Shown here: positions 12,342 to 39,434 of the stretch, in pieces | How positions within the stretch are numbered: position 1 is the stretch's first letter | How the letters are laid out: every line of letters starts with the position of its first letter | IMG/VR virus record: IMGVR_UViG_3300037455_000543 | Coordinates: 123,136-187,135 of that record | From: a virus | Lineage: Duplodnaviria; Heunggongvirae; Uroviricota; Caudoviricetes | Strand: one strand, 5' to 3' | DNA: 64,000 nt | The notes under the pieces: model-generated | What the model was told of the DNA's origin: nothing | Seen by the model: the letters and a program-made list of their open reading frames with translations, nothing else | The model's database searches: none | Program-made: the position numbers and the translations under genes

Positions 12342-12348
12342 AAACTAT

Positions 12349-15306: not shown

Positions 15307-15324
15307 ATTATAAAAACCTCTTAT

Positions 15325-15332
15325 TATTTATA
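15325..15332 (-). promoter_or_regulatory. T4-late-like promoter box TATAAATA (minus strand)
   Basis: 22 nt upstream of the ATG at 15306, with an AAGAGG RBS. A terminator hairpin for the upstream gene lies at about 15340-15370. Confidence 0.4.
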
Positions 15333-15396
15333 ACATAAGCGGCATACAAAAAATACCAGATATACTGGTATTTTTGACTAATACTGATATATAATA

Positions 15397-16044
15397 TTAT
15401 TCCTGTGCTTCTGCCGTATAGAAAAATTCTTCTGGCGTTGCATATTCAATAGCATCTGCAGCATCCATCATGGCAATATATTTAGCCATACGTTCTTCTG
15501 TTAAGAACGGGTCCGTTTCCATTGACTGAAGAACCTGCTTAGCTTCGCGGAAAGAACCGGTCTGGACAAGCGAGATTACTGGTGCGAGTTTTACACCAAT
15601 TTCAAGAGGTGTAATTCCCTTAAAATCAGTCTTTACACATTCCTCACGGAATAATGCTATGAACTCATCACCAACTGTCATATTATAATCAATTTCTCCA
15701 GCCAATCCGTCAATAGCAGAAATTCTTGAAGTGTTTGAATTATATTCAGTCGTGAAACGATAAAAGTCAACCACCTTGCCCATAAAGTCCTTTACTTCAT
15801 GTTCATTGAAGTTTTCAAGAACAGCTGGTGCTTCTTTTGTCCAGAAATCTTTATTGTTGTAGACGCATTCACCGTCAACATAAACTACTCGTGAAATGTA
15901 TTTCATATCTATATCCTGTAAAATGTAAAAGTCCTCTTCCTCTTCGCCTAACTCCTGCATGCGAGCTTTTATTAGAGCCAAGCTTGCAGCAGTATGTGCT
16001 ACTTTTTCTGTTTGTTTATTAACTGCGTAAAACTGATTCATCAT
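15397..16044 (-). CDS. hypothetical protein (215 aa)
   Basis: ORF in the structural operon. Confidence 0.5.
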   Translation of the reverse strand: MMNQFYAVNKQTEKVAHTAASLALIKARMQELGEEEEDFYILQDIDMKYISRVVYVDGECVYNNKDFWTKEAPAVLENFNEHEVKDFMGKVVDFYRFTTEYNSNTSRISAIDGLAGEIDYNMTVGDEFIALFREECVKTDFKGITPLEIGVKLAPVISLVQTGSFREAKQVLQSMETDPFLTEERMAKYIAMMDAADAIEYATPEEFFYTAEAQE

Positions 16045-17744: not shown

Positions 17745-17753
17745 AATACCTCA

Positions 17754-19568
17754 TTAGGTGTCATATATGAAATAATATGTATTTGCTTCTGTATTATCTG
17801 GAAGACTAGTGACGTTAATTACACATGCACCAATATCAAAACCACTAGCAGTCTTTCTTAACATATAGTTCGGTCCATTTGTATTATCAAAACTTGACAT
17901 TGAATCATAAGATGCAGTTGGGACGTGAACTACCTTAGACATGTTTCCCTGTGAATTAACTGTAATGTTACCATAAGCAGTATTTCCGTTTGGAGCAAAA
18001 TCAATTTGTATTGAAGTACCATTTAAATCGCCAACATTTCCACCTTGAACATTCTTTAAGAAACCACCACCATTACTATTTACACCAAGCCAGTTAGTAC
18101 CAATAGCGGTTGTATCAGTAAGACTATTTACTCTGGATTGTCCCATTAAAGTAGCAGTAGTATTTACAGTCAACAAATTCTTTCCAGTAGATTTAACAAT
18201 AACATCACCAGATACTGTTCCACCTGAAGTTGGTAAGAAACTACTATTTACATAATCTGTAGTAGCAATAACATCTGTCTTTACACCTAGTTTTGTACTT
18301 ACAGATTTACCATCACCTGATAATGTTGTAGTGTCTATGTTAGCTGTAGCAACAAATGTTCCTAATGCTTCTGATTTAGAGTAAGATTGATCTTGGAAAT
18401 CGCACCAACCACTTACAGCACCATTACTATCTGTTCGTAATACTAAGTATTTGTTTACCAATTCAGTTGGTTTGTCTACTTTATTATTCCATCCAGCACT
18501 AGCTGCTGTTAATGTATTAACAGTGGCTGTAATACTTATTGGTGCATAATCATCTAATTGTGTTTTTAATGCGAATGTAGCACTATCAGTTTGATATTGT
18601 ACTGTAGTTAGATAACTATTTAACTGTGAAGCAGAAGCAAATGTAGAATCTACTTGCGTTTTTGTATAATAGTTACTTAAATCAGTTGTAGGAATCGTAT
18701 AATCAGTACTGCCTATTTTAATACCTGTTAATGTATTGTTAGTACCAGTTAATACATCAGCAGTCGTTACATAATTACCTGTTGGTTGATACAAAGTATC
18801 TGCACTTGTTTTTGTAAGATATGTATTTGGCGCAGTTGTTCCAGTATATGTAGTAAAATCAGAACTATCGAGTTTTCCATTGATAGTATTTAACTGGTCT
18901 TGTGTTAAGCCAATATTCCATTGATTATTAATCTCGCCATCACGTGTTGCTGCAATACCGTTATAGCCGCTTAATGTAGTATCTGTTACAACGGGTTGAG
19001 CAGTCATAGAAATACCAAATGTCTTAACACCGGCATCTGTTGCTGTAGAAACTTGAATACCTGCGGCTGCGGTTACATTATATTTCAAAATATCATTAAA
19101 TGCTGCAGATAATTCATCTTTACCAGAAGTTTCAGTTTTTAAATAATATGTATCTGGAACTTGTGTCAAATAATTCTGGTTGTTAACCCAACCAGTTACT
19201 TCTGCACTGGCTGCTTGAACATATTGTTTTGTTGCAAAATCGCCACTTAGTGCAGCAAATTCATCCTTATCCAATTTTGCATTAATTGCATCGACTGTTG
19301 CATAATTAGCTGAATCAGTTAAATCAGATACTTTCGTCGGAATAGGCGTATTTAATTTAGCTGCTGCATCAGTAGATAAAGCTATTGTATGTTGAGTATT
19401 ATTTATACTAATATTATCATCACCTGGAGTATAAATAACACTTCCTTGTCCACCACCGCCACCGGTGAATGCCTCAATAACAGGACCAAGTGTCACAATT
19501 AAATTATTAACTTCGGATTCAGATAATTGTACTGAATTATTTGTAATAATTTTATTCATCTTACTCAT
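17754..19568 (-). CDS. tail fibre-like protein (604 aa, Ser/Thr/Asn/Gly-rich)
   Basis: Composition and context. Confidence 0.45.
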   Translation of the reverse strand: MSKMNKIITNNSVQLSESEVNNLIVTLGPVIEAFTGGGGGQGSVIYTPGDDNISINNTQHTIALSTDAAAKLNTPIPTKVSDLTDSANYATVDAINAKLDKDEFAALSGDFATKQYVQAASAEVTGWVNNQNYLTQVPDTYYLKTETSGKDELSAAFNDILKYNVTAAAGIQVSTATDAGVKTFGISMTAQPVVTDTTLSGYNGIAATRDGEINNQWNIGLTQDQLNTINGKLDSSDFTTYTGTTAPNTYLTKTSADTLYQPTGNYVTTADVLTGTNNTLTGIKIGSTDYTIPTTDLSNYYTKTQVDSTFASASQLNSYLTTVQYQTDSATFALKTQLDDYAPISITATVNTLTAASAGWNNKVDKPTELVNKYLVLRTDSNGAVSGWCDFQDQSYSKSEALGTFVATANIDTTTLSGDGKSVSTKLGVKTDVIATTDYVNSSFLPTSGGTVSGDVIVKSTGKNLLTVNTTATLMGQSRVNSLTDTTAIGTNWLGVNSNGGGFLKNVQGGNVGDLNGTSIQIDFAPNGNTAYGNITVNSQGNMSKVVHVPTASYDSMSSFDNTNGPNYMLRKTASGFDIGACVINVTSLPDNTEANTYYFIYDT

Positions 19569-19881
19569 ATCTGTCTTCTCCTTCTGCTAATGATTTCAAT
19601 AACCATGCTTTTAAATTTTCTAATCCTTTAATATTAATCGTTTCAATAATTTTTATAGCAGACTGAAACATACCGTATTCAATATATGGCAATACACCCA
19701 TATATTCAGCAAAATCAGTGCCATCATAATCATCTAATTGTTTAATGAAATCGTTAATGATTATTCGTCCAATATATTGATTCCACTCCAGTCCGGTTTT
19801 AAAATCAGAGTTTCCATATATTTTTACAAGTTCATCATTTTTGCTTCCAACCATTTGTAATCTATTATAAGTAGGTAACAT
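19561..19881 (-). CDS. hypothetical protein (106 aa), possible fibre assembly factor
   Basis: Small ORF overlapping both neighbours in the fibre operon. Confidence 0.4.
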   Translation of the reverse strand: MLPTYNRLQMVGSKNDELVKIYGNSDFKTGLEWNQYIGRIIINDFIKQLDDYDGTDFAEYMGVLPYIEYGMFQSAIKIIETINIKGLENLKAWLLKSLAEGEDRYE

Positions 19882-19890
19882 AAAAACTCC

Positions 19891-22800
19891 TTAATTAATC
19901 TTACCGTTACGAATCTGCATAAAGAATCTTGGAACTGTCGGTTGCTCGTTATAATTATCAGACCAAGGGCCCCACTGATAATCAGTTTGACTATCTGGTT
20001 TTAATATATTTAATCCAGCATCAGGATCATTCATATCAATTCCAGTAATATTTTCTGTTCTAACTGTAAATCTAGGTATTGCATTAATAAAACTTGCAGC
20101 TGCATAACTCGGACAACCCGCCAAAGATAATCCGTTTTGTGCTCTAGCTTCTGCTGGAATATAAATTGCAGCATAATAAACACAGTCAGACTTTAATTCA
20201 GAAATATTTGGATTTATATGTTTAATCGGGAATTCATTTCTACCAGCAGCAATTTGAATAGGACCAGTATCAGCGACATAATCAGTATGTGTCCAGTCAT
20301 AAACATATAATGCTAACATAATTTTTGGTGTAAATCCTTGTTTAGCATAAACTCCAAATAATGTTCCTGCAGGTTCTTCTTGCGTAGCCAATCTAATAGG
20401 GTTATTAATAGGAACTGTAAATGCCTGACAAATTAAACCAGCACCATTACTTATTGTAGAAATACTATCATTTGCAAAATCATAAACATTATCAATTTGT
20501 GGCATTGGGAAGTTTGTTGTTAACTTACTATCCAAATCATTTTCCATTTTTTGAACAGATTCAACAACTTCTTCAACTTGACTATTAATTGTAATAGCTT
20601 TAACACCAACACCAGCATTTTCATCAAACTTCAAACCATCACCAAGTTTAACTTGAATATGATTGCCACTAAATTCTAAACCATCGCCAATATCAACACT
20701 AAATGTATCATTTTGTAATAATAAGCCATTACCTGCTTGATAAGTAGAACCACCAATTTCACTTAAAGAACATATTACTCTATGAACATTTAAATCCTTT
20801 ACAAAGAATGTTGTATTACGTGGCAAGTCTTCTATTGTATAAGTCAACTTTGTAGCATCAGTTGCTACTCTAATATCATAAGACAAGCTAATAGTTTCAG
20901 TATGAGCATAGCTACCATCAATTTCCTGCTGTACCTGTCTTGACGGCGCAGTAGTAGATTTTAATATCGTACTGTGATAATTATTATCATTACCTGGAAT
21001 AGTAATACCGACCTGCATATCTACATGATATAAACCAGAATTTGCATATACTTCTGCATTATCAAGATAAATATCAGTTCCGATATAATCATCTTGTGCA
21101 AATCCAGTAATTTCAGCACTTGTTGTATAGGTATTATTTGATGTGTGGAATCTAGCATATGTTACAAGGTTAGTCTTATCAAGGCCTATGTTCCATTGAT
21201 TAGATTCAGGAATATATTCTGCAGAAATACCATTATTACTGTTAATGTTTGCACCACTAAGCAAGTAATAATTTACATCATTATCTATACCAGTCCATGC
21301 ACTCATCATGGATGCAGAAATACTATATTGAATGAACGGTTCAGGTTCCTTGGCACTTAATACATAACCAGAAGTTTCACCCATTGCTGAAACAGTAGCA
21401 GAAACCAGTTCTGGAGTCAAGGAAGTAATAGGATAAATCTTTCCAAGGTCAGACAAATCAATACCAGACCATGCAACTGCATCGCCTGTCTTCTTTATAA
21501 CATATGCTAAATCTTCATCAGCAATTTCATCGCCAGAAGTTACAAACTTTCCAGAATTTGCACTGAATGCAGAAGCTTCATTCCAATTAGCACTCGTTGA
21601 AGATACAGTATCATAAACACTTGTCCAATAACCGGAATTTGCCTTTAATGTTGCACTAGTTTCATCCCAGCTAGCGCTATTGTTAAGAACAGATTCATAA
21701 ACGCTATCCCAGTAACCTGAGTTAGCCTTTAACGTAGCACTTGTTTCATTCCAACTTGCACTATTGGCAAGAACAGACTCATAAACACTGTTCCAGTTTC
21801 CGCTTACATCCGAGATTTCTTCACGTTTTAAATACGGGTCCAAATCCATCGATGTATCGCCAATACAATACCAACCGGTATTTGCGCCTGTACCTGTTAC
21901 AATCCATTCAAATGATTTATCTACACCTGTTACAGTTGAATCTTTAATTAAATATATCTTTTTTGGATCACCTGTTAATGGCAATGCATCAACCGGAACA
22001 AATCCACCAAAATCTGCAAGAGCTGCTGAGATTGCATCAGTTACCCATGGCTTATCAGCTAAGTCGCCGCTAACGAATTCCAATACAAACTTATTGGTTG
22101 CAGATTGAACAGTAATAAATTCATTCTTACTTTCAACAGTATTATGTGCAGAGTTAGCCTTTAATGTTTCAACATCAGTCTTTACTGGCCCGAATTCATC
22201 TGTTTTCCATGTATCAAAAACATCTGTATCAAGCTTTGTAGCAGATAATGCAGAGTGATTATTCCAAGTTGCAGATGTAGCTGTAAGTGCAGTATAAGAT
22301 TCTTCCCATTTACCAGAATTCTCTTTTAATGTAGCACTTGTTTCATTCCAACTTGCGCTATTATCAAATACTGAATCATAAACGCTATTCCACTTACCGC
22401 TATAGTTATCCAATGCATTAGCGGAAAGATAATTAGCAGAAATACTAATTATATGTTCATCAACCTTGATGCCATCTGCCCCACTGTAATATATCTTATC
22501 CCAAGCATCAGTTGTTGCAGACCATTCTTCAAATGCGTCTTTATCAAGTTTTGTAGCAGATAATGCAGAATGATTATTCCATGTTGCAGAAGTTGAAGTC
22601 AATGCTGTATATGCTTGACCCCAAAAACCAGAATTTTCATTTACTACGGCACTTGTCTCATTCCAACTAGCACTATTAGCTAAAACAGAATTATAAACAC
22701 TGTCCCAATAACCAGAATTGGTTTTTAATGTAGCGCTTGTCTCATTCCAGCTTGCGCTATTATCAAATACTGAATTATAAACACTATCCCATTTACCAGA

Positions 22801-23802
22801 GTTAGTATTTAATGTAGCACTTGTTTCGTTCCAACTAGCACTATTAGCTAAAACAGAATTATAAACACTATCCCAATGACCACTAAGATCGTCCAATGCA
22901 TTGGCAGAAAGATATTCACCTATAGGCTGGAATGTCTCCTTAGCCCAAGCGGATGTGTCAGCTAAACCTTTATCAACATAGCTCTTATCAGCTTTGGCAG
23001 TTACTGTGTTCCATGTATTTCGTTCACCTTCTTGAATATGAACATCAGTAGCAGCAACATGAGTAGCTAAATCAGACTTAATACTAGAAACAGAACTTAT
23101 AGCTGATAACTGTGCAGGTGTTAACTTATCTTGTTTTTTATTAAATGCTGCATCAAGTTCTCCGTTAGCACTTGTTTCAGTCTTCTTATAATAATAATCT
23201 AACTGAGATGCAGATGCAAAAGTTGCTTTTGCCCATGCAGAAGTAGCAGTAAACTTATTATCAACATCAGTTTTTAATGCAAATTTTCCAGAATTCGAAG
23301 AAAATGCAGAAGCTTCATTCCATTTTGCACTGTTTGCCTTTACAGTATTATATGTGTTTTGCCAATTTCCGCTATAATTATTCAATGCATTAGCAGAAAG
23401 ATACTTTGCAGATACACCTATATAATATGCAGATGTAGAACTATCCCATCTTGCACGAATACCATCTACACCTAATATATTAGTGTCTGATACAATAGGG
23501 TCAGCAGTAAAAGAAATGTCATAATATGCAACACCATCTTTAAAATCTGGCGTAATTGTAACATTTTTATCAGTACTGCTAACAACTGCATGCGGTACTG
23601 CGCTGTATATTGAAAAATCTTCGTTTGTTACATATAAATCTGACTTAACACCTAATGGCTTACTATTAGTGCCATTGCCAGATAATGTATCATCAATCTT
23701 TAAATTTAATCCTATCGGAGAGTCTGATCTACCATTTCCAGATAATGGTGCATTAACTTTTGCTTGATCTATTGCTATAATATGGCCATTTTTCTGTATC
23801 AT
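19891..23802 (-). CDS. large tail fibre protein (1303 aa) with 28-aa tandem repeats
   Basis: Repeats such as NSGKWDSVYNSVFDNSASWNETSATLKT occur at least 8 times. A TATAAATA box is 20 nt upstream, with an AGAGGA RBS. Confidence 0.6.
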   Translation of the reverse strand: MIQKNGHIIAIDQAKVNAPLSGNGRSDSPIGLNLKIDDTLSGNGTNSKPLGVKSDLYVTNEDFSIYSAVPHAVVSSTDKNVTITPDFKDGVAYYDISFTADPIVSDTNILGVDGIRARWDSSTSAYYIGVSAKYLSANALNNYSGNWQNTYNTVKANSAKWNEASAFSSNSGKFALKTDVDNKFTATSAWAKATFASASQLDYYYKKTETSANGELDAAFNKKQDKLTPAQLSAISSVSSIKSDLATHVAATDVHIQEGERNTWNTVTAKADKSYVDKGLADTSAWAKETFQPIGEYLSANALDDLSGHWDSVYNSVLANSASWNETSATLNTNSGKWDSVYNSVFDNSASWNETSATLKTNSGYWDSVYNSVLANSASWNETSAVVNENSGFWGQAYTALTSTSATWNNHSALSATKLDKDAFEEWSATTDAWDKIYYSGADGIKVDEHIISISANYLSANALDNYSGKWNSVYDSVFDNSASWNETSATLKENSGKWEESYTALTATSATWNNHSALSATKLDTDVFDTWKTDEFGPVKTDVETLKANSAHNTVESKNEFITVQSATNKFVLEFVSGDLADKPWVTDAISAALADFGGFVPVDALPLTGDPKKIYLIKDSTVTGVDKSFEWIVTGTGANTGWYCIGDTSMDLDPYLKREEISDVSGNWNSVYESVLANSASWNETSATLKANSGYWDSVYESVLNNSASWDETSATLKANSGYWTSVYDTVSSTSANWNEASAFSANSGKFVTSGDEIADEDLAYVIKKTGDAVAWSGIDLSDLGKIYPITSLTPELVSATVSAMGETSGYVLSAKEPEPFIQYSISASMMSAWTGIDNDVNYYLLSGANINSNNGISAEYIPESNQWNIGLDKTNLVTYARFHTSNNTYTTSAEITGFAQDDYIGTDIYLDNAEVYANSGLYHVDMQVGITIPGNDNNYHSTILKSTTAPSRQVQQEIDGSYAHTETISLSYDIRVATDATKLTYTIEDLPRNTTFFVKDLNVHRVICSLSEIGGSTYQAGNGLLLQNDTFSVDIGDGLEFSGNHIQVKLGDGLKFDENAGVGVKAITINSQVEEVVESVQKMENDLDSKLTTNFPMPQIDNVYDFANDSISTISNGAGLICQAFTVPINNPIRLATQEEPAGTLFGVYAKQGFTPKIMLALYVYDWTHTDYVADTGPIQIAAGRNEFPIKHINPNISELKSDCVYYAAIYIPAEARAQNGLSLAGCPSYAAASFINAIPRFTVRTENITGIDMNDPDAGLNILKPDSQTDYQWGPWSDNYNEQPTVPRFFMQIRNGKIN
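21640..22905 (-). repeat. 84-nt tandem or dispersed repeats inside the fibre gene
   Basis: The DNA motif GCACTTGTTTCATTCCAACTTGCACTATT... recurs. Confidence 0.55.
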
Positions 23803-31163: not shown

Positions 31164-32741
31164 TTAACCGTTGAGCTGCTTCGGTTCGGTCTTACCACCG
31201 ACACCAGCGAGCTTGCTACCCATGAGAGAGCTGAGCAATACACGCGGGTCGATACCGAGAGAGTCGGTCAAACCACTAGTAATCTGAGAGATGGTCTTGG
31301 TGATGTCACCAGTGAGCTTAGCACCGTTTCCTTCACCATACATAGTGATGTTACCAATCTTTTCCATCGGCTTAGCGACAGCACCAGCGATTTCAGGCAA
31401 CTGAGCGAAGTAAGTCTTGAGTGCATCGAGCTGCATGTCCTGCTTAGCAGCGTCACCATACTTAGCCATAGCGTCAGCCTTCTTATCAAGAGCTTCAGCT
31501 TCTGCAAGACCCTTAGCCTTAGTAGCAGCAGCTTCACCTTCACCCTTAAGCTTACTTGCACGACCTTCAGCTTCACCAGTAGCAGCAATACCCTTTGCCT
31601 TATTGACTGCAGCTTCGTAATCAGCTTCAGCCATGGTCTTAACAGCGACTGCCTTCTGTTCCTGTCCATAACGGTCAGCATCAGCACTTCTTTCTTGTTC
31701 ATACTTTTCAGCTTCAGCTTTCTTCTGTCTTTCATACAGAGCAGCATCAGATTGCTTCTGCTTTGCATAGAGTGCAGCTTCAGCCTGGAGCATTGCGGCA
31801 GACTTTTCAGCTTCTGCCTTCTTAGTAATCTGAGCTTCAAGTTCCTTCTGAGTAACAGCTACGCGACGTTCCCTAATTTCAATTTCCTTTTCCTGCTTTG
31901 CAACTTCAGCTTCAGCAGCGGTAATGTTAATTTGCTTCAACTGAGTCTGCTTCTGAATTTCATAAGCAGCATCTGCAATAGCCTTCTGATTATCTGCTTC
32001 CTTCTTCAGGTTTGCTTTCTTAATTTCAAGTTCGTTGTTTCGTTCAGCAATAGTTGTTTCGGTCTTAACTTCAGCGTCGTTTGCTTCCTTCTTAGCAACA
32101 GCCTGAGCAACCTTAATATCCTTTTCAGCCTGAGCCTTAGAAATTGCTGCCTGCTTCTTAATCGCAACGATATTATCAATACCAAGGTTAACAATCACAT
32201 CATTATCGTCTTCAAAGTTCTGAACATTGAAAGATACAAGATCAAGACCCATAGCAGCGAGGTCCGGAGTAACATTTTCTGTAACCTGCTGTGCAAATGC
32301 CTTTCGGTCACCAATCATGTCGGTAAGCTTCATCTTACCGACAATCTCTCTCATATTACCTTCAAGAACTTCATTCACAACGCCTGCAATATAATTAGTG
32401 TCCTTATTCAAGAAGTTCTGAGCTGCAATCGGCAAAAGCTTTTCATTATTAGAAATCTTAACGTTAACGTTCGCATCGACTGTCACGTTAATATAATCTG
32501 CAGTCGGAATTGATTGCTTAGTCTTGACGTCAATCTTAATAAGCTTCAGAGAAAGCACGTCAAATCTTTCAAGGAACGGAATTCTGATACCAGCTTTACC
32601 AATGATATATCTCGGCATTTTTCGAATACCAGAGATAATATATGCAGTATCAGGCGGAGCCTTAATATAAGACATCACGAAGATGATACCGAGGAAGATG
32701 AGAACAGCGGCAACGCCGCCAATGATATAGAGATTAGGCAT
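31164..32741 (-). CDS. SPFH/band-7 (flotillin-like) membrane protein with a long Ala/Glu/Lys coiled coil
   Basis: N-terminal TM helix followed by the SPFH core IIGKAGIRIPFLERFDVLSLKLIKIDVKTKQSIPTADYINVTVDANV. About 250 aa of AEAEK-type coiled coil follows. Confidence 0.75.
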   Translation of the reverse strand: MPNLYIIGGVAAVLIFLGIIFVMSYIKAPPDTAYIISGIRKMPRYIIGKAGIRIPFLERFDVLSLKLIKIDVKTKQSIPTADYINVTVDANVNVKISNNEKLLPIAAQNFLNKDTNYIAGVVNEVLEGNMREIVGKMKLTDMIGDRKAFAQQVTENVTPDLAAMGLDLVSFNVQNFEDDNDVIVNLGIDNIVAIKKQAAISKAQAEKDIKVAQAVAKKEANDAEVKTETTIAERNNELEIKKANLKKEADNQKAIADAAYEIQKQTQLKQINITAAEAEVAKQEKEIEIRERRVAVTQKELEAQITKKAEAEKSAAMLQAEAALYAKQKQSDAALYERQKKAEAEKYEQERSADADRYGQEQKAVAVKTMAEADYEAAVNKAKGIAATGEAEGRASKLKGEGEAAATKAKGLAEAEALDKKADAMAKYGDAAKQDMQLDALKTYFAQLPEIAGAVAKPMEKIGNITMYGEGNGAKLTGDITKTISQITSGLTDSLGIDPRVLLSSLMGSKLAGVGGKTEPKQLNG

Positions 32742-33688: not shown

Positions 33689-33726
33689 TGTTTTTCTCCT
33701 TAAACTTTATATTATTTATAAAAAAA

Positions 33727-33752
33727 CCTAGGCTTTTAACCTAGGTTTTAAT
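33727..33752. terminator. bidirectional terminator hairpin
   Basis: AACCTAGG-CTTTTAA-CCTAGGTT flanked by A7 and T4 runs. Confidence 0.45.
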
Positions 33753-33757
33753 ATTTA

Positions 33758-33895
33758 AGGATTTAATCTTTTATAACTTAGATGGACTAATGCATCATCG
33801 TTATCCTGTAAATTCTGAGATTTCTGAACATCTGATAATTCTTTTTCTTTTGAGAAGAATTCTTTAGAAAATGGATTAATGAACTCAATTTTCAT
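33758..33895 (-). CDS. small ORF (46 aa) starting 8 nt after the giant gene stop
   Basis: Hand-translated as MKIEFINPFSKEFFSKEKELSDVQKSQNLQDNDDALVHLSYKRLNP. Below the track cutoff. Confidence 0.25.
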
Positions 33896-33902
33896 TATAA
33901 CC

Positions 33903-36900
33903 TTACTTCTTATTTGGACGCTTGAAACCAAATGTCTTCATAGTTTCATCTTTCTTTACAGTCTTGTCACCTTTACGTTGTTCCTTATAATCACAACGGT
34001 GCTTTGCAATCGACTTACTATAAAGTTTAGTCAAATATGCGCCTGTTCCAAGAGCATGTTTATTCTTGGCCTTGACAGTTCCATCTCTATCAGCTAACCA
34101 ATCAATAACCATCTGAACTGTTCCTGCACTTGTAGTCTTAGCTTCGTCATTCAATGTAAATTCGATATTGAAATCGTTTACATAGTTAGCAGCATTAGTA
34201 TAGACCCAAAGATGTAAGTTGTATTTTACATCATAGAGAGGAATATTCAAACCATACTTCTGATAATCCTTCTGGAATTCTTCAGTACAATGCTCTTCAA
34301 CATACTGATCAACTGGAATTCCATGTGTGGAGGCACCCACTATATTGCCATTATCATCAACTGGAATCTGACCGTTTTTCGTGATGTCATCCAATGTGGC
34401 GAGTGAACCCGTCGGAGAAACAGATGGAAGTACAATATCAACCTTGAAGCCAACACCAATTACATCTGGAATTGTATCATTCTTCGGGTCAACAAACTTA
34501 ACGTCATAAGGTTTCTTATCATTATACTTGTGACCGCTAGAATAATATTCATCAACCTTGTCCTGATCAACCATAGTTACTGGATGAACAAGCTCAATAT
34601 CAATATCCTTTGCTTCATTCATAATAACCATTACGGTATCAGCAGAAACGTTACCTGCCTTATCAACATATCTTCTAATAACATAGTTGACACCTTTTTC
34701 AAGTCTCTGTAAATTCAATGTATCTTGAACAATACCATTTACTGTCCACTTGACCGGAATTGCATTGGTATTGTAAGATTGTCCACGAACTGGATCAGAA
34801 ATTTCAACCTTAGGCGGAATATTATCATAGATAATATCTACCTTAGAAGAAGCCTTGTTACCAAAGTCATCAGTATATACATAGCTTACAGTAAAGGCGA
34901 TGTTACCTTCCTTGTTCTTCGTAATCTTCTTGTCATCACCAAGATAATAAGAAACAGTAGTGCAAGAATCAACCTTATAAGAAACTTCATAATCGCTAAC
35001 TCTCTGACCAGTCAAATTATCAGTCTTATAAGTGATAGTCAATTCCTTACCGTCTTGCTTAACTGTATATGTAACAGTCTGAACAGTATCAATCGGGTTC
35101 ATTTTCTTATCAACAATCTTGGTCAATGTAATCTTTCTATCACCATCCTTGACAACTTCCTTGACTTCAATCAAGCCACCGCCAATCTGTGTATATGTAG
35201 CAAGAGACTCATCAATCAAGTAATTATATTCGGTTACGTTCTTAGAAGAAACGTGAAGAGTATCAAGCTTAACATCAATCGGGAAAGTCTTTTCTGTCTT
35301 ATGAATAGTATCACGAACAGTAACCTTTAATTCATTATCTTTCTTATTGACATAAATCTTATCATCCTTTTCTTCTTCGATAGTAATGTAGTCAATCAAG
35401 GCATCAGTAGACTTTGCATTGGTCAAAGTAACAACTGGCGGAGCATCATTGAACAATACTACGATAGAATCACAAACAGTCTTCTTATCATTACATACCT
35501 TAATAGTTGTGTCCTTATGAATTCTAGGATTATCATAATGAGTTGTGCAGCTATCGCCTTCACAAATGGTCCACTTGAATTCATGGTCAGGATCATTGGT
35601 CTTTACGGTATCAGGTGGCGGATTATGATCCCATTCAGTAATCTTTACATCTTCAGGTTCATCGAGAATTCTGATAATTACCTGGGCGGTATCAGAAAAT
35701 TCACCATCGGTTACAATAACAGTTACAGTGTCCTTAGTCTTCTTTTCATAGTCAATCGGGTTCTTGATAGTAATTACACCAGTAGAATCGATAGAATAGT
35801 TCGTAGTATCGGTAATTATATACTTAGGAGTTGTTTTATCTTCATCGGTTGCAGTAATCTTGCAAACCTTACCAGTATAATTTTCCTTTACAGAACAAGT
35901 AGTATCTTGAACATGAACTGGCTCATTAATATCAGTTACCTTAATTACATAGGTAGCTGTATCAGCTGCACCACTAGAATCCTTTGCAATAACCGTAATC
36001 TTAACTTCTGGAGTTTTCTCATAATCAAGAGGATCAGTGAGCTTTAATACACCATTAGAATCGATTGTAAAGCCTGGTTCCTTAACTTCGTAAATTACCT
36101 TATCGCTATCTGGGTCAACAGCAGTAATGATGCCAACAATACAGCTCTTGCAATTTTCAGGAACTATAAGAGAGTCATTCGGCTGTAATACAGGAGGTTC
36201 ATTTACATTCTTAATATCAACAACAACTATGGCAGTATCAGTAAATACGCCATCAGTTACAAATACCTTAACAGTATCGGACTTAGTAACTTCATAGTCA
36301 AAAGGATCTACCAGTCTAAGAACACCAGTATTAGTATCGATGCTGTAATGCACAGTATCATCGCAAGAAAATTTAACAGGCTTTCCATCTTCATCTTCTC
36401 CTTTGACTTTACCGATTTCGCCAGTCTTGCCTTCATCTACAACAAATGTAGTATCTTTGGTATGAACTGGTTCATTAACATCAGTTACTTTTATATTTAC
36501 AGTCATAGTATCTTTTGCCTTACCATCGTCAGCAACTACCTTGAATGTAAATCCTTTTTCTTTTTCATAGTCAAATGTTCTAGTAGAAGTAATTACGCCA
36601 GTAGAATCAATCTTGAAAGGAACAGTTCCAACAATAGAATAAGTAATCTTATCACCATCTTGGTCAGTAGCCTTTACACTATCCTTAAACGGTTTATTTT
36701 CATCTACATAGAATGTAGTATCATGAGTAGCGAACTTAGGACCATCATTGCTGTTTGTAATATTAACAGTAACAATAGCACTATCCTTTAAGCTAGGATC
36801 ATTCTTATCCTGGACCAAAACCTTAATTGTATAAGTCTTTTGGTCTGTTTCATAATCAAATGTCTTCTTAGCCCACAATTCGCCATCAGAATCAAGTCTG

Positions 36901-38690
36901 AAGATACTTGTATCGCCTTCAAGCATTGTGAATATATTCTGGGTAAATGCAGTCTTAGTATCTGGATCTTTTGCAACTAACTTCTCAACCATGAACGGAT
37001 GAATAAGATTTTCCGGAAGATTAGTAGTTACATCATCGATTGTCGGAGCTTCATTAACATCGATAACTGTAATAGGAATATTACGAGTTACACTTACATT
37101 GCCAGTATCAGTCAATGTAATCTTAATAACATCGATTGCAGCTTTTTCATAATCTAATGGTTCACCAATAAGTGTCAACTTACCAGTCAAGCTATCTAAT
37201 TCATATCTATCAGTATATGCACTATCAAGATGGAAACGAGTATTAGCTGTTCCATTCAAAATCTTGATTGCATCTACTTCACCAAGCTTATTTTCCTCAA
37301 ACTTATATGTCTTTGTAGTATCAAATTCAACATGTCCAACCGGAGCATCAATAATTTTAATCTTTAATTCACCGTCAGTTTTACCATTCGGAAGAATAGC
37401 CCCAGAAATATCTGTAATCTTTACATATAAATATTCATCTTCTGTCAATGTATCAATCTTAACATTAACTTGGATTGGCGTCAATGGTAACTTAGAACCA
37501 GTAGGAATAACAACTTTCTTACTTTCACCATTTCCACAAATCGGAAAAGAAGGTGGAATATTAAAGTCATCAGTTGTTACACCGTCCTTCAAATCAAGAC
37601 AATATGTGAAATAAACATTAATATCAGTTGTATCGCTAAGTTCAATAGGAATAATTACTGTAGAATCATTTTCTCTCAAACCGCCATACTTATCTAGCTT
37701 AACATCGATTGTATCAGGGTCAAACTTAACAAATCTGAAATTCTTACCATTATATGTATCACCAATTCTTAACTGATTAGCAAGTAACTGACCAGCAAAA
37801 TTAATATTACATGCAAGATAGATTTCCTTAGTAGAAATCATAGTTCCTTGCATAATAGAATTATCAGAATGTTCAATACTAATGCTTTCATCAGTATAGA
37901 TAATTACATTACCACGATAATCGGACTGACTTAATTCATATTTAGTAGAGTCAGTTCTATAAACAACCTGAATCTGACCATGGTCATGATAAAGGAAATG
38001 CTTTACAAAAATACGTGTAAGTCTACCACCATCCTGCATTTCAATCTGCAACTTCTGATGGTCAAGCTTAAACTGAATAGTATCAAGATAAATGTCATAC
38101 TGGTCATTACCATCAGGAACAACGATAGTTTTAATATCACCATTTAATTGATTATCAAATATAATACTATGAGAAATAGTATCAGGCCATGTAATAGTCG
38201 GAATAGAAAGATTTACCGGTGCAGCAGGAACATTATCTACACAAACTTGAGTGGTAGAAGTAAAAATACTATCATTTGAACAATGATTTACTTTAGAATT
38301 ACTTACATCATTTAAACAGACATAACCATTAATACATGCGCCATTCTGGTTTGCATAAGTATATGTATTAGCTCTAACCGGACCAGAAGTCAAAGTAGGC
38401 TGGTCTCCGAAAGTAATATTACCATTTACCAAGACTGGACCACCAAGATTCAATCTTGCATTAGCTGTCATATATCCAGCTGTTCCATTCCAGCCAGACT
38501 TATCCTGAATCGTAACATCATTACCGATTGTAAGATAATCTCTACCAAAGAGCTTATACTTAAGCATATAATCAAACTCTGCCTGTTGAGAGACAGAATC
38601 TTCTGCTACCGATTCAAAATTAAACGGCTTATAATCAGCACTCCAGACGAATGCAATCAAGAAAAGAATAATTCCAAATATCTTTTTCAT
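33903..38690 (-). CDS. giant secreted protein (1595 aa) with multiple cadherin-like repeat domains
   Basis: N-terminal signal peptide MKKIFGIILFLIAFVWSA. Repeated VxDVNE(P/A)P linkers (DVNEAPTIDD, NSNDGPKF, DVNEPVH, NVNEPPV, DINEPVH). Cadherin Ca-site-like motifs ATDQDGDKITYSI, AVDPDSDKVIYEV, ATDEDKTTPKYII. Basic KRPNKK tail. Confidence 0.7.
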   Translation of the reverse strand: MKKIFGIILFLIAFVWSADYKPFNFESVAEDSVSQQAEFDYMLKYKLFGRDYLTIGNDVTIQDKSGWNGTAGYMTANARLNLGGPVLVNGNITFGDQPTLTSGPVRANTYTYANQNGACINGYVCLNDVSNSKVNHCSNDSIFTSTTQVCVDNVPAAPVNLSIPTITWPDTISHSIIFDNQLNGDIKTIVVPDGNDQYDIYLDTIQFKLDHQKLQIEMQDGGRLTRIFVKHFLYHDHGQIQVVYRTDSTKYELSQSDYRGNVIIYTDESISIEHSDNSIMQGTMISTKEIYLACNINFAGQLLANQLRIGDTYNGKNFRFVKFDPDTIDVKLDKYGGLRENDSTVIIPIELSDTTDINVYFTYCLDLKDGVTTDDFNIPPSFPICGNGESKKVVIPTGSKLPLTPIQVNVKIDTLTEDEYLYVKITDISGAILPNGKTDGELKIKIIDAPVGHVEFDTTKTYKFEENKLGEVDAIKILNGTANTRFHLDSAYTDRYELDSLTGKLTLIGEPLDYEKAAIDVIKITLTDTGNVSVTRNIPITVIDVNEAPTIDDVTTNLPENLIHPFMVEKLVAKDPDTKTAFTQNIFTMLEGDTSIFRLDSDGELWAKKTFDYETDQKTYTIKVLVQDKNDPSLKDSAIVTVNITNSNDGPKFATHDTTFYVDENKPFKDSVKATDQDGDKITYSIVGTVPFKIDSTGVITSTRTFDYEKEKGFTFKVVADDGKAKDTMTVNIKVTDVNEPVHTKDTTFVVDEGKTGEIGKVKGEDEDGKPVKFSCDDTVHYSIDTNTGVLRLVDPFDYEVTKSDTVKVFVTDGVFTDTAIVVVDIKNVNEPPVLQPNDSLIVPENCKSCIVGIITAVDPDSDKVIYEVKEPGFTIDSNGVLKLTDPLDYEKTPEVKITVIAKDSSGAADTATYVIKVTDINEPVHVQDTTCSVKENYTGKVCKITATDEDKTTPKYIITDTTNYSIDSTGVITIKNPIDYEKKTKDTVTVIVTDGEFSDTAQVIIRILDEPEDVKITEWDHNPPPDTVKTNDPDHEFKWTICEGDSCTTHYDNPRIHKDTTIKVCNDKKTVCDSIVVLFNDAPPVVTLTNAKSTDALIDYITIEEEKDDKIYVNKKDNELKVTVRDTIHKTEKTFPIDVKLDTLHVSSKNVTEYNYLIDESLATYTQIGGGLIEVKEVVKDGDRKITLTKIVDKKMNPIDTVQTVTYTVKQDGKELTITYKTDNLTGQRVSDYEVSYKVDSCTTVSYYLGDDKKITKNKEGNIAFTVSYVYTDDFGNKASSKVDIIYDNIPPKVEISDPVRGQSYNTNAIPVKWTVNGIVQDTLNLQRLEKGVNYVIRRYVDKAGNVSADTVMVIMNEAKDIDIELVHPVTMVDQDKVDEYYSSGHKYNDKKPYDVKFVDPKNDTIPDVIGVGFKVDIVLPSVSPTGSLATLDDITKNGQIPVDDNGNIVGASTHGIPVDQYVEEHCTEEFQKDYQKYGLNIPLYDVKYNLHLWVYTNAANYVNDFNIEFTLNDEAKTTSAGTVQMVIDWLADRDGTVKAKNKHALGTGAYLTKLYSKSIAKHRCDYKEQRKGDKTVKKDETMKTFGFKRPNKK

Positions 38691-38719
38691 TTTCTTCCTC
38701 TGTTATTAAATTTTCTATA

Positions 38720-38744
38720 TATTTATAATTTCACTACAAATATA
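38720..38744 (-). promoter_or_regulatory. stacked promoters for the giant gene: TATATTTG (38737-38744) plus TATAAATA (38720-38727)
   Basis: The minus strand reads TTACTATATTTGTAGTGAAATTATAAATATATAG...GAGGAAG..ATG. Confidence 0.4.
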
Positions 38745-38800
38745 GTAAAAAATGCGAGTTGTGTAAACCCGCATTAACGTAATAATAATGTTATATTAAA

Positions 38801-39008: not shown

Positions 39009-39434
39009 TCATTTCTTTGCTACATTTCTTCTAATTCGCTTTCCATCTCCAGTTTTCGTAACGGGTAAATTCTGAATATTCAACTTCTTTACCGCATCAC
39101 AAAGAACCTCGATTTTCTCTATTATTTCTAGTTTTTTCTTCGACGCTTCAAGAGAATTAGCTAAATCTTTAATTCTCATCATATACTTATAACAATCGAA
39201 ATTCTTAAGGTCACTTACATTAAACCCAGAATTCAGTTTTTCATTATCAGGATATGCTTTTGCTAAACAATGATGTGCCACTACATGCTCCTTTGGTGTC
39301 AAGTAAATCCAATTCGATTCTATGTCAGGTCCGCCCTGGCTTTGCGGTATAATATGATGTTTTTCATATAATATACCAGCTTTCCTACCGGCGGCACTTG
39401 CTATAATCACATAATATGCTTTTAAGTAGTTCAT
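39009..39434 (-). CDS. HNH endonuclease
   Basis: EKHHIIPQSQGGPDIESNWIYLTPKEHVVAHH. Confidence 0.65.
   Translation of the reverse strand: MNYLKAYYVIIASAAGRKAGILYEKHHIIPQSQGGPDIESNWIYLTPKEHVVAHHCLAKAYPDNEKLNSGFNVSDLKNFDCYKYMMRIKDLANSLEASKKKLEIIEKIEVLCDAVKKLNIQNLPVTKTGDGKRIRRNVAKK

What the first reader, a model, noticed from the sequence alone, without database searches (positions are those of the whole stretch)
33903..38690. 1595-aa secreted cadherin-repeat protein in a non-structural block, driven by both early-type and late-type promoter boxes
A signal peptide plus at least 8 cadherin-like domains (VxDVNEP linkers, DxDxD calcium-site motifs) is typical of bacterial adhesins, not of phage replication loci. 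It lies between the nrdDG/SPFH cluster and an HNH gene, far from the fibre operon. It could be a virion decoration (Ig/cadherin-like mucus or glycan binding), or a protein exported by the infected cell, for example for superinfection exclusion or host aggregation. Stacked TATATTTG and TATAAATA boxes suggest expression throughout infection. A 46-codon ORF starts 8 nt after its stop.
Basis: partly seen in the sequence, partly recalled or inferred. Interest (0 to 1): 0.65.

Follow-up and report, generated by a model that had tools for sequence, protein, structure and literature searches.

The report
Phage copy of a Fibrobacter surface adhesin
A huge T4-like phage from the ruminant gut carries a conserved, exported 178-kDa adhesin-like protein of a family otherwise found only on the chromosomes of the cellulose-degrading bacterium Fibrobacter, which suggests the phage changes what its infected host sticks to and names its likely host.

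Summary
The 1595-aa ORF (33903-38690, minus strand) is real. It has a classical signal peptide, but six cadherin repeats, not eight or more.

**Anatomy.** After the signal peptide come an N-terminal beta-helix whose predicted fold resembles ice-binding proteins and cellulose-binding tapirins, a Calx-beta domain and the six cadherin repeats. The last ~575 aa form an all-beta C-terminal module that ends in a basic tail with an invariant FG(Y/F)KRP motif.

**Relatives.**
- The whole architecture matches a paralogous family of 1300-3300-aa proteins found almost only in Fibrobacter genomes.
- The phage copies form their own clade. It has more than 100 variants, on contigs up to 424 kb.
- Variants carry about four to ten cadherin repeats. 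The gene is under purifying selection overall, shows module-wise recombination, and its beta-helix tip is the most variable part.

**Expression signals.** Most relatives keep a sigma70-like promoter and a T4-late-type TATAAATA box upstream.

**Best reading (about 0.5).** The infected cell exports the protein by the host's own route and displays it as an adhesin. The ligand is unknown.

**Alternatives.** Virion decoration is disfavoured. Superinfection exclusion remains possible.

The host is probably Fibrobacter. This is a new variant of a known kind, of moderately high interest.

The parts
38751..38775 (-). Hairpin plus T-run: intrinsic terminator of the upstream 66-aa gene. Its loop and 3' arm overlap the -35 of the next promoter.
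   Evidence: Terminator scan; sequence read.
38739..38767 (-). Sigma70-like promoter TTTACA-N17-TATATT(TG).
   Evidence: The same TTGACA-like-N17-TATATT arrangement lies 47-66 nt upstream of the ATG in 21 of 29 distinct homologue upstream regions. In the window, TATATTTG is enriched upstream of replication-type genes.
38720..38727 (-). TATAAATA box, identical to the T4 late-promoter consensus, 37 nt before the ATG.
   Evidence: 13 of 25 window hits lie within 80 nt upstream of a same-strand gene start, where about 1.2 are expected. One of these genes is the gp15 tail-sheath-stabiliser homologue. The box is present 21-41 nt upstream in 18 of 29 homologue upstream regions.
38694..38700 (-). Ribosome-binding site GAGGAAG.
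   Evidence: Sequence read.
33903..38690 (-). CDS of 1595 aa, 178 kDa, pI 4.8.
   Evidence: More than 100 full-length homologues at 59-100% identity. Overall dN/dS 0.14-0.24.
38640..38690 (-). Signal peptide, residues 1-17. Predicted cleavage is VWS|AD, before the conserved A-D-(V/Y)-x-P-(F/L) motif.
   Evidence: Inferred by rule, because SignalP was not available.
37716..38618 (-). N-terminal beta-helix 'tip' domain, residues ~25-325, with an ice-binding-protein/tapirin-like fold. It is the most variable part of the protein.
37350..37703 (-). Calx-beta-like domain, residues ~330-447.
35634..37319 (-). Six tandem cadherin repeats, residues 458-1019, with xEN / DxD / DYE / (D/N)xNExP linker motifs.
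   Evidence: Homologues carry about 4 to 10 repeats.
33906..35633 (-). Conserved C-terminal module, residues 1020-1595. It is a chain of beta-sandwich domains shared with Fibrobacter chromosomal proteins.
   Evidence: 421 relatives, with the module always at the C-terminus. AF2 pLDDT 72. Only generic Ig-like structural matches.
34611..34880 (-). Ig-like domain with the invariant R-x-Y-x-D-K-A-G-N motif, residues ~1271-1360. It is also found as multi-copy repeats in other Fibrobacter proteins.
   Evidence: P0148, named 'fibro-slime domain-containing protein', has 14 copies.
33915..33932 (-). FGFKRP, the family-invariant FG(Y/F)KRP motif, inside a basic tail (last 40-90 aa, pI about 10). It is a candidate sorting or anchoring signal.
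33755..33895 (-). 46-codon ORF, 8 nt after the stop and in the same transcription unit. Its significance is doubtful.
   Evidence: Conserved only in the closest relative, L007. No family hit.
33723..33749 (-). Perfect 10-bp hairpin AAAACCTAGG-N7-CCTAGGTTTT running into a T-run. It is the likely terminator closing the unit and is followed by the next TATAAATA box at 33713-33720.
   Evidence: Read from the sequence. The terminator scan did not list it, because the T-run is part of the stem.

Best explanation
The gene encodes a phage-borne member of a Fibrobacter-specific family of giant cell-surface proteins.

**Proposed mechanism**
1. The gene is transcribed from its own promoters: a host-type sigma70-like one and a T4-late-type one.
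2. The protein is taken across the inner membrane by Sec through its cleavable signal peptide.
3. It is then handled by the host pathway that serves the chromosomal paralogues. That pathway would recognise the conserved ~575-aa C-terminal module and its basic FG(Y/F)KRP tail.
4. It ends up on the surface of the infected cell. The C-module is cell-proximal. The six calcium-type cadherin repeats form a rod of roughly 25-30 nm. The Calx-beta domain and the beta-helix sit at the distal tip.
5. The tip binds an external, probably flat or repetitive, surface: plant fibre/cellulose or the envelope of neighbouring cells. The phage thereby changes what the infected cell adheres to.

**Shown**
- The gene, its domain anatomy and its full-length homology to Fibrobacter proteins.
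- Its monophyly within phages, purifying selection, modular recombination and tip variability.
- Conservation of the promoter motifs.

**Inferred**
- Export, surface display and orientation.
- Adhesion, the ligand, expression timing, and Fibrobacter as the host.
For: - **A real, maintained gene.** More than 100 homologue clusters at 59-100% identity sit on contigs up to 424 kb. Forty loci lie on IMG/VR viral contigs up to 416 kb. Overall dN/dS is 0.14-0.24.
- **Phage context.** NrdD/NrdG, UvsX-like recombinase, DnaB-like helicase and a T4 gp15 homologue are in the window.
- **Same architecture in Fibrobacter.**
  - The C-module sits at the C-terminus of 421 proteins of 1300-3300 aa.
  - More than 100 of these also share the N-module at residues ~1-500.
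  - Named members are 'cadherin repeat domain-containing protein [Fibrobacter sp./Fibrobacteraceae]'.
  - The scan of 185,579 species genomes found 125 relatives. In the 72 loci listed, all matches at 30-37% identity but one lie in Fibrobacter, Fibrobacteraceae or Fibrobacterales assemblies, often several per genome.
  - 59 of 61 complete bacterial ORFs with the tail motif have the full architecture.
- **Conserved export signals.** The signal peptide and the A-D-(V/Y)-x-P-(F/L) motif are kept in phage and bacterial copies. The FG(Y/F)KRP tail and the cysteines are invariant.
- **Separate phage clade** in the tree of the last 400 aa.
- **Adhesin-like evolution.** The stalk length varies. The tip is the most variable part and is exchanged independently of the stalk.
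- **Own regulatory unit.** Conserved dual promoters are flanked by terminators.
- **Related phage.** A GH10+CBM6 gene lies directly upstream of the homologue in locus L001.
- **Cultured host.** F. succinogenes S85 has a 318-kDa 'cadherin domain protein', FSU_2932, with a signal peptide and a predicted outer-membrane location. It was detected only in cellulose-grown envelopes (PMC4619616). Its size and pI match one bacterial subfamily found here. That identity is inferred, not shown.
Against: - There is no experimental or proteomic evidence of export, surface display or adhesion for this protein or for any family member.
- The function of the C-module is unknown. It has no specific structural match and no T9SS CTD hit, so the 'host sorting pathway' is hypothetical.
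- A hypervariable tip fits poorly with a chemically invariant ligand such as cellulose. It fits better with a variable target.
- The ice-binding/tapirin similarity is fold-level only. No Pfam Ice_binding hit was found.
- Host assignment rests on gene-family distribution. Metagenomic binning is inconsistent: related phage contigs were binned as Prevotella, Methanobrevibacter, Bacilli, Clostridia and Fibrobacter.
- Window GC is 34%, while most Fibrobacter loci are 42-56%.
- Promoter classes and timing are assigned by analogy.
Confidence: 0.5

Rival explanations
1. Superinfection exclusion or a receptor decoy. The exported protein mimics, masks or replaces a host surface protein of the same family that phages use as a receptor, or its tip captures incoming competitor virions. 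This would protect the infected cell and, after lysis, the progeny from adsorbing to debris.
For: - The protein is host-like and exported.
- The promoters suggest both early and late expression.
- The hypervariable, recombining tip is typical of arms-race interfaces.
- The gene is single-copy, has its own promoters and terminators, and lies in a plastic accessory region next to HNH genes.
Against: - Known exclusion proteins (T4 Imm/Sp, T5 Llp, Cor, Ltp; established knowledge) are small membrane or periplasmic proteins. A 178-kDa protein with a long rod of conserved architecture is an expensive way to block a receptor.
- There is no PADLOC hit.
- Nothing shows that any phage uses this family as a receptor.
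Confidence: 0.2
2. Virion-associated adhesin (capsid decoration or fibre). It would bind plant fibre, mucus or host glycans and concentrate particles where hosts live, as proposed for Hoc-type Ig-like decorations.
For: - The TATAAATA late-type box is the most widely conserved upstream signal.
- The protein is long, modular and rod-like with a variable tip, like receptor-binding proteins.
- Ig-like and cadherin-like domains do occur on phage particles (established knowledge).
Against: - The cleavable Sec signal peptide is conserved in all homologues, whereas tailed-phage particles assemble in the cytoplasm.
- The full architecture, including the C-module, functions in Fibrobacter chromosomes with no phage context.
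- There is no informative PHROG match, and no domain is shared with other ORFs of the window.
- The gene lies among nucleotide-metabolism and replication genes, with unconserved neighbours.
Confidence: 0.07
3. A released factor. The protein is exported but not retained. It is shed into the medium or onto outer-membrane vesicles, where it acts as a soluble lectin or glue, for example cross-linking fibre, vesicles and cells, or as a scaffold for fibre-degrading enzymes.
For: - Signal peptide.
- No transmembrane or lipid anchor is recognisable.
- A GH10+CBM6 gene is adjacent in one related phage.
- Fibrobacter is described as using vesicles and envelope complexes for fibre degradation (PMC6851124).
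Against: - The strictly conserved, large C-module and terminal motif argue for a specific retention or sorting function rather than simple release.
- No enzyme-docking modules were detected.
Confidence: 0.1
4. A passenger gene. A recently captured host gene with no role in the phage life cycle, or an assembly or binning artefact.
For: Huge phages carry many host-like genes. Neighbouring HNH and transposase genes suggest a mobile region.
Against: - The phage copies form one deep clade at 35-100% identity, spanning phages of 31-54% GC.
- The gene is full-length and under purifying selection.
- It has its own conserved phage-type promoters.
- The exact protein is on a 424-kb contig, and relatives are on many independent assemblies.
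Confidence: 0.03

Closest known systems
Chromosomal cadherin-repeat proteins of Fibrobacter (e.g. MCF0215355.1, MCQ2105338.1, WP_290914319.1; probably FSU_2932 of F. succinogenes S85)
   Same: Same full-length architecture: signal peptide with the A-D-V-x-P-(F/L) motif, beta-helix, Calx-beta, cadherin repeats, the ~570-aa C-module with its DKAGN Ig domain, and the FG(Y/F)KRP basic tail.
   Different: - Only 24-37% identical to the phage protein.
- Phage copies form their own clade and are among the shortest: 1300-2060 aa, against up to 3330 aa.
- Phage copies lack a ~25-aa insert in the C-module.
- Phage copies are driven by phage-type promoters and are single-copy rather than tandem paralogues.
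- The bacterial family itself is functionally uncharacterised.
Giant calcium-dependent RTX adhesins such as Marinomonas primoryensis MpIBP and Salmonella SiiE
   Same: The design logic is the same: a cell-anchored module, a long rod of calcium-stabilised beta-sandwich repeats, and a distal ligand-binding domain. In MpIBP the ligand-binding part is an ice-binding beta-helix. SiiE and the MpIBP repeat region appear among the Foldseek matches of the C-module. Ice-binding folds are the top matches of the tip.
   Different: - This protein has no RTX repeats and no type I secretion signal.
- It has an N-terminal Sec signal peptide.
- The ligand domain is at the N-terminus, not near the C-terminus.
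- The repeats are true cadherin domains rather than BIg domains.
- It is phage-encoded.
Tapirins of Caldicellulosiruptor (cellulose-binding adhesins; PDB 4wa0, 6n2b, 6n2c)
   Different: There is no detectable sequence similarity. Tapirins are small proteins linked to type IV pilus loci in Gram-positive thermophiles. Cellulose binding by the phage tip is untested.
DUF3494 / type 1 ice-binding proteins (PDB 7bwx, 5uyt, 3wp9, 6bg8)
   Different: There is no Pfam hit to the family. An ice-binding role is implausible in a 39 °C gut, so the fold is probably reused as a flat binding surface.
Phage Ig-like/cadherin-like proteins: T4 Hoc-type decorations and the 'putative protocadherin protein' of Brevundimonas jumbo phages Gurke and Kikimora
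   Same: They are phage-encoded proteins with tandem beta-sandwich adhesion domains. The Brevundimonas proteins are the only hits among 50,697 deposited phage genomes (25-26% identity over the cadherin region).
   Different: Only the cadherin repeats match. Neither the N-module nor the C-module is matched in the Brevundimonas phages (matches span only query residues 486-928). Hoc is a cytoplasmically assembled capsid protein (established knowledge).
Phage-encoded bacterial adhesins PblA/PblB of Streptococcus mitis phage SM1 (established knowledge, not searched here)
   Same: A phage gene product that changes what the bacterial host adheres to.
   Different: PblA and PblB are virion tail proteins released by lysis that re-bind the cell wall. 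They have no signal peptide and do not belong to a host surface-protein family.

Membership tests
Fibrobacter cadherin-repeat giant surface-protein family (unnamed) | N-terminal signal peptide followed by a conserved A-D-(V/Y/L)-x-P-(F/L/M) motif | tested here: met
   The window protein has ...VWS|ADYKPF. Phage and bacterial members are listed.
Fibrobacter cadherin-repeat giant surface-protein family (unnamed) | Homologous N-module (beta-helix plus Calx-beta) at residues ~1-500 | tested here: met
   BLASTP of residues 1-460 hits more than 100 family members at their N-termini, at 22-69% identity.
Fibrobacter cadherin-repeat giant surface-protein family (unnamed) | Central array of cadherin repeats of variable number | tested here: met
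   Six repeats here. Bacterial members give 5-12 Pfam stretches.
Fibrobacter cadherin-repeat giant surface-protein family (unnamed) | ~570-aa C-terminal module with the R-x-Y-x-DKAGN Ig domain, conserved cysteines and the terminal FG(Y/F)KRP basic tail | tested here: met
   (39 invariant columns in the last 400 aa).
Fibrobacter cadherin-repeat giant surface-protein family (unnamed) | Encoded on a Fibrobacter chromosome | tested here: not met
   The window is a T4-like phage. Phage copies form a separate clade. It is therefore a phage branch of the family, not a bacterial orthologue.
Cadherin domain (Pfam PF00028) | Profile score above the curated threshold, in tandem copies | tested here: met
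   132.9 bits against a cut-off of 28.8, in 5 stretches. The self-HMM finds six. PDB cadherin hits go down to E 1e-25.
Cadherin domain (Pfam PF00028) | Inter-repeat calcium-binding motifs (xEN, DxD, DxNExP-type linker) | tested here: met
   The motifs are present in the repeat alignment. Calcium binding itself is not testable here.
DUF3494 / type 1 ice-binding proteins | Beta-helix with flanking helix (fold) | tested here: met
DUF3494 / type 1 ice-binding proteins | Sequence-profile membership | tested here: not met
   No such Pfam or NCBIfam hit at E <= 0.1 or 1.
Tapirins | Cellulose binding by the beta-helix domain | not testable with these tools
Tapirins | Location next to a type IV pilus locus | tested here: not met
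   The neighbours are nrdDG, SPFH, HNH and hypothetical genes.
Type IX secretion cargo (TIGR04183-type C-terminal domain) | Profile match of the C-terminal ~80 aa | tested here: not met
   No NCBIfam hit at E <= 1.
Type IX secretion cargo (TIGR04183-type C-terminal domain) | Basic C-terminal domain, as described for Fibrobacter envelope enzymes (BTD/Fpm-1) | tested here: inconclusive
   The last 40-90 aa have pI 9.7-10.1 in a protein of pI 4.8. The BTD-T9SS link is from PMC6851124. No sequence comparison with a BTD was possible.
RTX giant adhesins (type I secreted) | RTX nonapeptide repeats and a C-terminal T1SS signal | tested here: not met
   No RTX/HemolysinCabind hit. An N-terminal Sec signal is present instead.
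Phage virion decoration or fibre proteins | Match to a phage structural family, or a place in a structural gene block, with no export signal | tested here: not met
   The only PHROG hit is marginal (E 0.004) to an unknown-function family. A signal peptide is present. The neighbours are non-structural. No domain is shared with other ORFs of the window.
Known anti-phage defence / exclusion proteins | Match to a PADLOC model | tested here: not met
   No hit for the protein or six neighbours. Exclusion proteins are poorly covered by that library.

The most novel reading that the evidence does not exclude
Huge phages of Fibrobacter deliberately re-arm the surface of the infected cell with their own adhesin, which has a rapidly diversifying tip. 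The adhesin would tether the infected cell to plant fibre or to neighbouring susceptible cells, so that the burst happens inside a dense host population. This would be viral manipulation of host attachment, working through a previously unrecognised Fibrobacter surface-sorting signal (the C-module with FG(Y/F)KRP).
Probability: 0.25. Interest if true: 0.8.

Novelty: new variant of a known kind. Interest (0 to 1): 0.62.

Why it matters
- **Host lead for an uncultured phage clade.** It gives a concrete, testable host assignment, Fibrobacter, for a widespread clade of ~410-425-kb phages from ruminant guts. Their contigs are currently mis-binned into Prevotella, Methanobrevibacter and other genomes.
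- **An unstudied Fibrobacter protein family.** It points to a fixed-architecture family of giant cadherin-repeat surface proteins in the main cellulolytic bacterium of the rumen. How that bacterium adheres to cellulose is still unresolved. The invariant C-terminal motif may be a sorting signal.
- **A new kind of phage auxiliary function, if display is confirmed.** A phage would be changing host adhesion in a fibre-attached biofilm, rather than changing metabolism. That could affect fibre colonisation and phage spread in the rumen.

Tried and rejected
- **Nucleotide search of the gene against 50,697 phage records:** no match.
- **Protein search of the same collection:** only two Brevundimonas jumbo phages, and only in the cadherin region.
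- **PHROGs, NCBIfam and PADLOC:** nothing informative.
- **T9SS C-terminal domain:** no profile hit. The structural matches of the C-module have low Z and TM scores and are generic Ig-like chains.
- **AFDB Foldseek search:** library unavailable.
- **Look-up of the exact protein's own contig:** not on record.
- **Linking the family to F. succinogenes S85 FSU_2932 by a third homology search:** no S85-named hit was returned. Only size and pI agree.
- **Functional operon with the neighbours:** rejected. SPFH/flotillin, the 275-aa gene and the 46-aa ORF are not conserved next to the gene.
- **C-module as a general sorting module for other protein types:** not supported in the loci examined. 59 of 61 ORFs with the tail have the full architecture.
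- **Papers on jumbo, rumen and gut phages:** none mentions cadherin or adhesin genes, or a huge phage of Fibrobacter.

Full report
**1. The observation**

The minus-strand ORF 33903..38690 exists as described: ATG start, 1595 codons. The window is low in GC (about 34%). It encodes phage functions:
- NrdD and NrdG, an SPFH/flotillin protein and an HNH nuclease around the ORF.
- A UvsW-like helicase, a UvsX-like recombinase and a DnaB-like helicase.
- A homologue of the T4 gp15 tail-sheath stabiliser.

The N-terminus MKKIFGIILFLIAFVWS|ADY has the n/h/c layout of a Sec signal peptide. AF2 models it as disordered (residues 1-17, pLDDT below 50). It is the only such N-terminus among the window's ORFs.

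Pfam confirms cadherin domains (PF00028, E 5.7e-39). PDB sequence matches to CELSR1, protocadherins and cadherin-23 all fall between residues 487 and 1033. A profile built from the repeats themselves finds exactly six copies, at residues 458-1019, and nothing else above noise.

The 46-codon ORF starts 8 nt after the stop.

**2. Anatomy of the protein**

Structure prediction of residues 1-480, using an alignment of 39 homologues, gave a confident model (pLDDT 85, pTM 0.83).

- Tailspike or pectate-lyase-type helices: only about 6-7.

The six cadherin repeats follow. They carry canonical xEN, DxD, DYE and (D/N)xNExP linker motifs.

The protein is acidic overall (pI 4.8, 178 kDa). It ends in a strongly basic tail (pI about 10 over the last 40-90 residues).

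**3. Relatives: a phage clade**

A search of 5.8 billion proteins found 410 hits. More than 100 are full-length homologue clusters at 59-100% identity, on contigs up to 424 kb. The 100%-identical entry is itself on a 424-kb contig. IMG/VR holds 40 loci on contigs classified as viral, up to 416 kb.

Homologues of 1414, ~1500, ~1785 and 2010 aa differ from the 1595-aa form only in the number of cadherin repeats, about four to ten. Both end modules are kept.

**4. Relatives: a Fibrobacter family**

An exhaustive profile-free search with the C-terminal module found 421 relatives. In these the module sits at the very C-terminus of proteins of 1300-3330 aa. More than 100 of the same proteins also share the N-module at their N-terminus. 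The whole architecture is therefore one family.

The members that carry names are 'cadherin repeat domain-containing protein' from Fibrobacter sp. or Fibrobacteraceae.

A scan of one genome for each of 185,579 prokaryotic species found 125 relatives:
- In the 72 loci listed, all matches at 30-37% identity but one (an Eggerthellaceae-labelled contig) are in Fibrobacter, Fibrobacteraceae or Fibrobacterales assemblies, from cattle, sheep, goat, yak, buffalo and horse. There are often several per genome, frequently in tandem.
- Of the closer matches, the five that are 40-72% identical are phage-like contigs binned into Prevotella, Fibrobacter, Methanobrevibacter, Bacilli and Clostridia MAGs (context examined for two of them).

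One bacterial locus has ordinary chromosomal neighbours. Of 61 complete bacterial ORFs carrying the tail motif, 59 have the full architecture.

An alignment of the last 400 residues shows 39 invariant columns. These include two cysteines, an R-x-Y-x-DKAGN Ig-like motif and the terminal F-G-(Y/F)-K-R-P. The signal peptide is followed in both phage and bacterial copies by A-D-(V/Y)-x-P-(F/L).

A neighbour-joining tree of the C-terminal 400 residues puts all phage-type copies in one clade, separate from the bacterial subfamilies. This is a simple distance tree, but the split is deep. The phage clade spans phages of 31-54% GC.

**5. Evolutionary behaviour**

Pairwise dN/dS over the whole gene is 0.14-0.24, so the gene is maintained by selection.

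The modules have discordant histories:
- Against the closest relative (L007), tip and stalk are 98-99% identical, but the C-module is only 87% identical (dS 0.49 against 0.11).
- Against L004, the stalk is 94% identical, but the beta-helix tip is only 53% identical (dN/dS 0.53 against 0.10 for the stalk).

Among 101 same-length phage alleles, the tip has a mean pairwise identity of 0.55, against 0.73-0.79 for every other part.

The immediate neighbours are not conserved. The 46-aa ORF, the 275-aa gene and the 66-aa gene occur only in the closest relative. SPFH is adjacent or nearby in 3 of 45 loci. HNH genes are nearby in 10 of 45. In one related phage a GH10+CBM6 gene lies directly upstream.

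**6. Expression signals**

In the window, 13 of 25 TATAAATA sites lie within 80 nt upstream of a same-strand gene start, a zone that is 4.7% of the strand-positions. One of those genes is the gp15 homologue. For TATATTTG the figure is 5 of 15, and the genes are replication-type.

The TATATTTG box is the -10 of a sigma70-like promoter, TTTACA-N17-TATATT. Its -35 lies in the hairpin that terminates the upstream gene.

Across 29 distinct upstream regions of phage homologues (examples):
- 21 keep a TTGACA-like-N17-TATATT promoter 47-66 nt before the ATG.
- 18 keep TATAAATA 21-41 nt before it.
- 16 keep both.

This holds although the flanking genes differ. A perfect 10-bp hairpin with a T-run follows the 46-aa ORF (read). 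The gene is thus a self-contained unit with two conserved promoter types. Calling them 'early' and 'late' rests on analogy with T4 and on which genes carry them here. Timing was not measured.

**7. Most likely mechanism**

The conserved signal peptide and the full-length homology to a chromosomal surface-protein family lead to this reading:
1. The protein is exported by Sec.
2. It is processed by whatever Fibrobacter pathway serves its paralogues, through the C-module and FG(Y/F)KRP tail.
3. It is displayed on the infected cell, with the cadherin rod holding the beta-helix tip away from the surface.

The tip fold is one that other organisms use to bind flat, ordered surfaces: ice, and cellulose in tapirins (bioRxiv 10.1101/359786).

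Fibrobacter must adhere to cellulose to degrade it (PMC3079729). In F. succinogenes S85, a 318-kDa 'cadherin domain protein' (FSU_2932) was detected only in envelopes of cellulose-grown cells. It has a signal peptide and a predicted outer-membrane location (PMC4619616). One bacterial subfamily found here has the same size and pI. I could not show that it is the same protein.

Against cellulose as the ligand: the tip is the fastest-evolving and most often exchanged part, which suits a variable target such as cell-surface structures better. I therefore commit to 'host-type adhesin displayed on the infected cell' at about 0.5 and leave the ligand open between plant fibre and neighbouring cells.

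**8. Rivals**

- **Superinfection exclusion or receptor decoy (0.2).** It fits the export, the host mimicry, the dual promoters and the arms-race-like tip. It is an extravagant solution compared with known exclusion proteins and has no direct support (no PADLOC hit).
- **Shed or vesicle-borne factor (0.1).** This cannot be excluded.
- **Virion decoration (0.07).** The conserved signal peptide, the purely bacterial use of the same architecture, the lack of any structural-family match and the lack of domain sharing with other window ORFs all count against it.
- **Passenger gene (0.03).** The conservation data count against it.

**9. Comparison with what is known, and novelty**

By every sequence feature tested, the protein belongs to the Fibrobacter cadherin-repeat family. 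It is a phage branch of that family, not a bacterial orthologue.

In design it works like giant calcium-dependent adhesins such as MpIBP or SiiE. It fails their defining features: there are no RTX repeats or T1SS signal, and a Sec signal is present. It shares a fold, but no sequence-family membership, with DUF3494 ice-binding proteins and tapirins. It does not match the T9SS C-terminal domain profile. Its basic tail does recall the basic terminal domain that has been linked to T9SS in Fibrobacter (PMC6851124).

Among deposited phage genomes, only two Brevundimonas jumbo phages have any similarity, and only in the cadherin region. None of the jumbo-phage or rumen-virome papers searched mentions such a gene, or a huge phage of Fibrobacter.

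I rate it a new variant of a known kind: a phage auxiliary gene that remodels the host surface. Two by-products may matter as much as the gene itself. One is a host lead for a widespread clade of ~420-kb rumen phages. The other is the delineation of an unstudied surface-protein family with a candidate sorting motif in Fibrobacter.

**10. Limits**

- No signal-peptide predictor, AFDB search or model coordinates were available.
- The C-module model is only medium confidence.
- The tree is a distance tree on 400 residues.
- Host assignment is by gene-family distribution, not by spacers or physical linkage.
- All statements about localisation, timing and binding are inferences.

Noticed in passing
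window 175-525 (+): A tmRNA gene with the tag peptide ANTYAMAA is encoded by the phage (ARAGORN).
   Followed up: no
L001 8085-9845 (+), related phage contig ERZ27297825:k141_832185: A 586-aa GH10 + CBM6 xylanase-like gene has a signal peptide and a C-terminal stretch that looks like a T9SS sorting domain (…FRVFDLNGNFLGIV…VRLNTPFVLK). It lies directly upstream of the cadherin homologue. It looks like a fibre-degrading auxiliary gene in a huge phage.
   Followed up: partly
L008, L009, L010, L011, L013 (GenBank MAG contigs): Contigs carrying the phage-type copy of the gene are deposited inside MAGs labelled Prevotella, Fibrobacter, Methanobrevibacter, Bacilli and Clostridia; L010 (191 kb) carries the same homologue as phage locus L004, L011 (266 kb) has T4-like phage neighbours and L008 has phage-like neighbours, while L009 and L013 were not examined. 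This is probable mis-binning of phage DNA.
   Followed up: partly
Fibrobacter loci, e.g. L012, L026, L034, L039, L042, L051, L077: Chromosomal members of the family often sit as tandem pairs, about 1490 aa plus about 1830 aa, or two copies of ~1800-2600 aa. Many distinct subfamilies occur per genome.
   Followed up: partly
window 38751-38775 (-) and homologous loci: The -35 element of the sigma70-like promoter is embedded in the terminator hairpin of the preceding gene. This compact terminator-promoter cassette travels with the cadherin gene into different genomic neighbourhoods.
   Followed up: yes
window 39009-39434 (-); L004, L080-L082, L110-L116: An HNH endonuclease gene lies next to the cadherin gene. 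HNH homologues are near the gene in 10 of 45 related loci, in varying positions, which suggests homing-endonuclease activity in this region.
   Followed up: partly
L001 4580-5812 and 20026-21231 (+): There are two IS605 OrfB/TnpB (Cas12f-like) genes in the related phage contig.
   Followed up: no
window 31164-32741 (-): A phage-encoded SPFH/flotillin protein of 525 aa has an N-terminal membrane anchor. It is adjacent to the cadherin gene in L001 and near it in the window, L007 and L004. Its role is unknown.
   Followed up: partly
window 9738-12341 (-): An 867-aa protein has weak DUF285 / BspA-type leucine-rich-repeat hits. It belongs to a run of large minus-strand genes (9738-23802) with otherwise no family matches. 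Two of them (12349-15306 and 19891-23802) are preceded by TATAAATA.
   Followed up: no
L011 13643-14452 (+): A diverged T4-like phage carrying a 1555-aa homologue also encodes a microbial-type poly(ADP-ribose) glycohydrolase.
   Followed up: no
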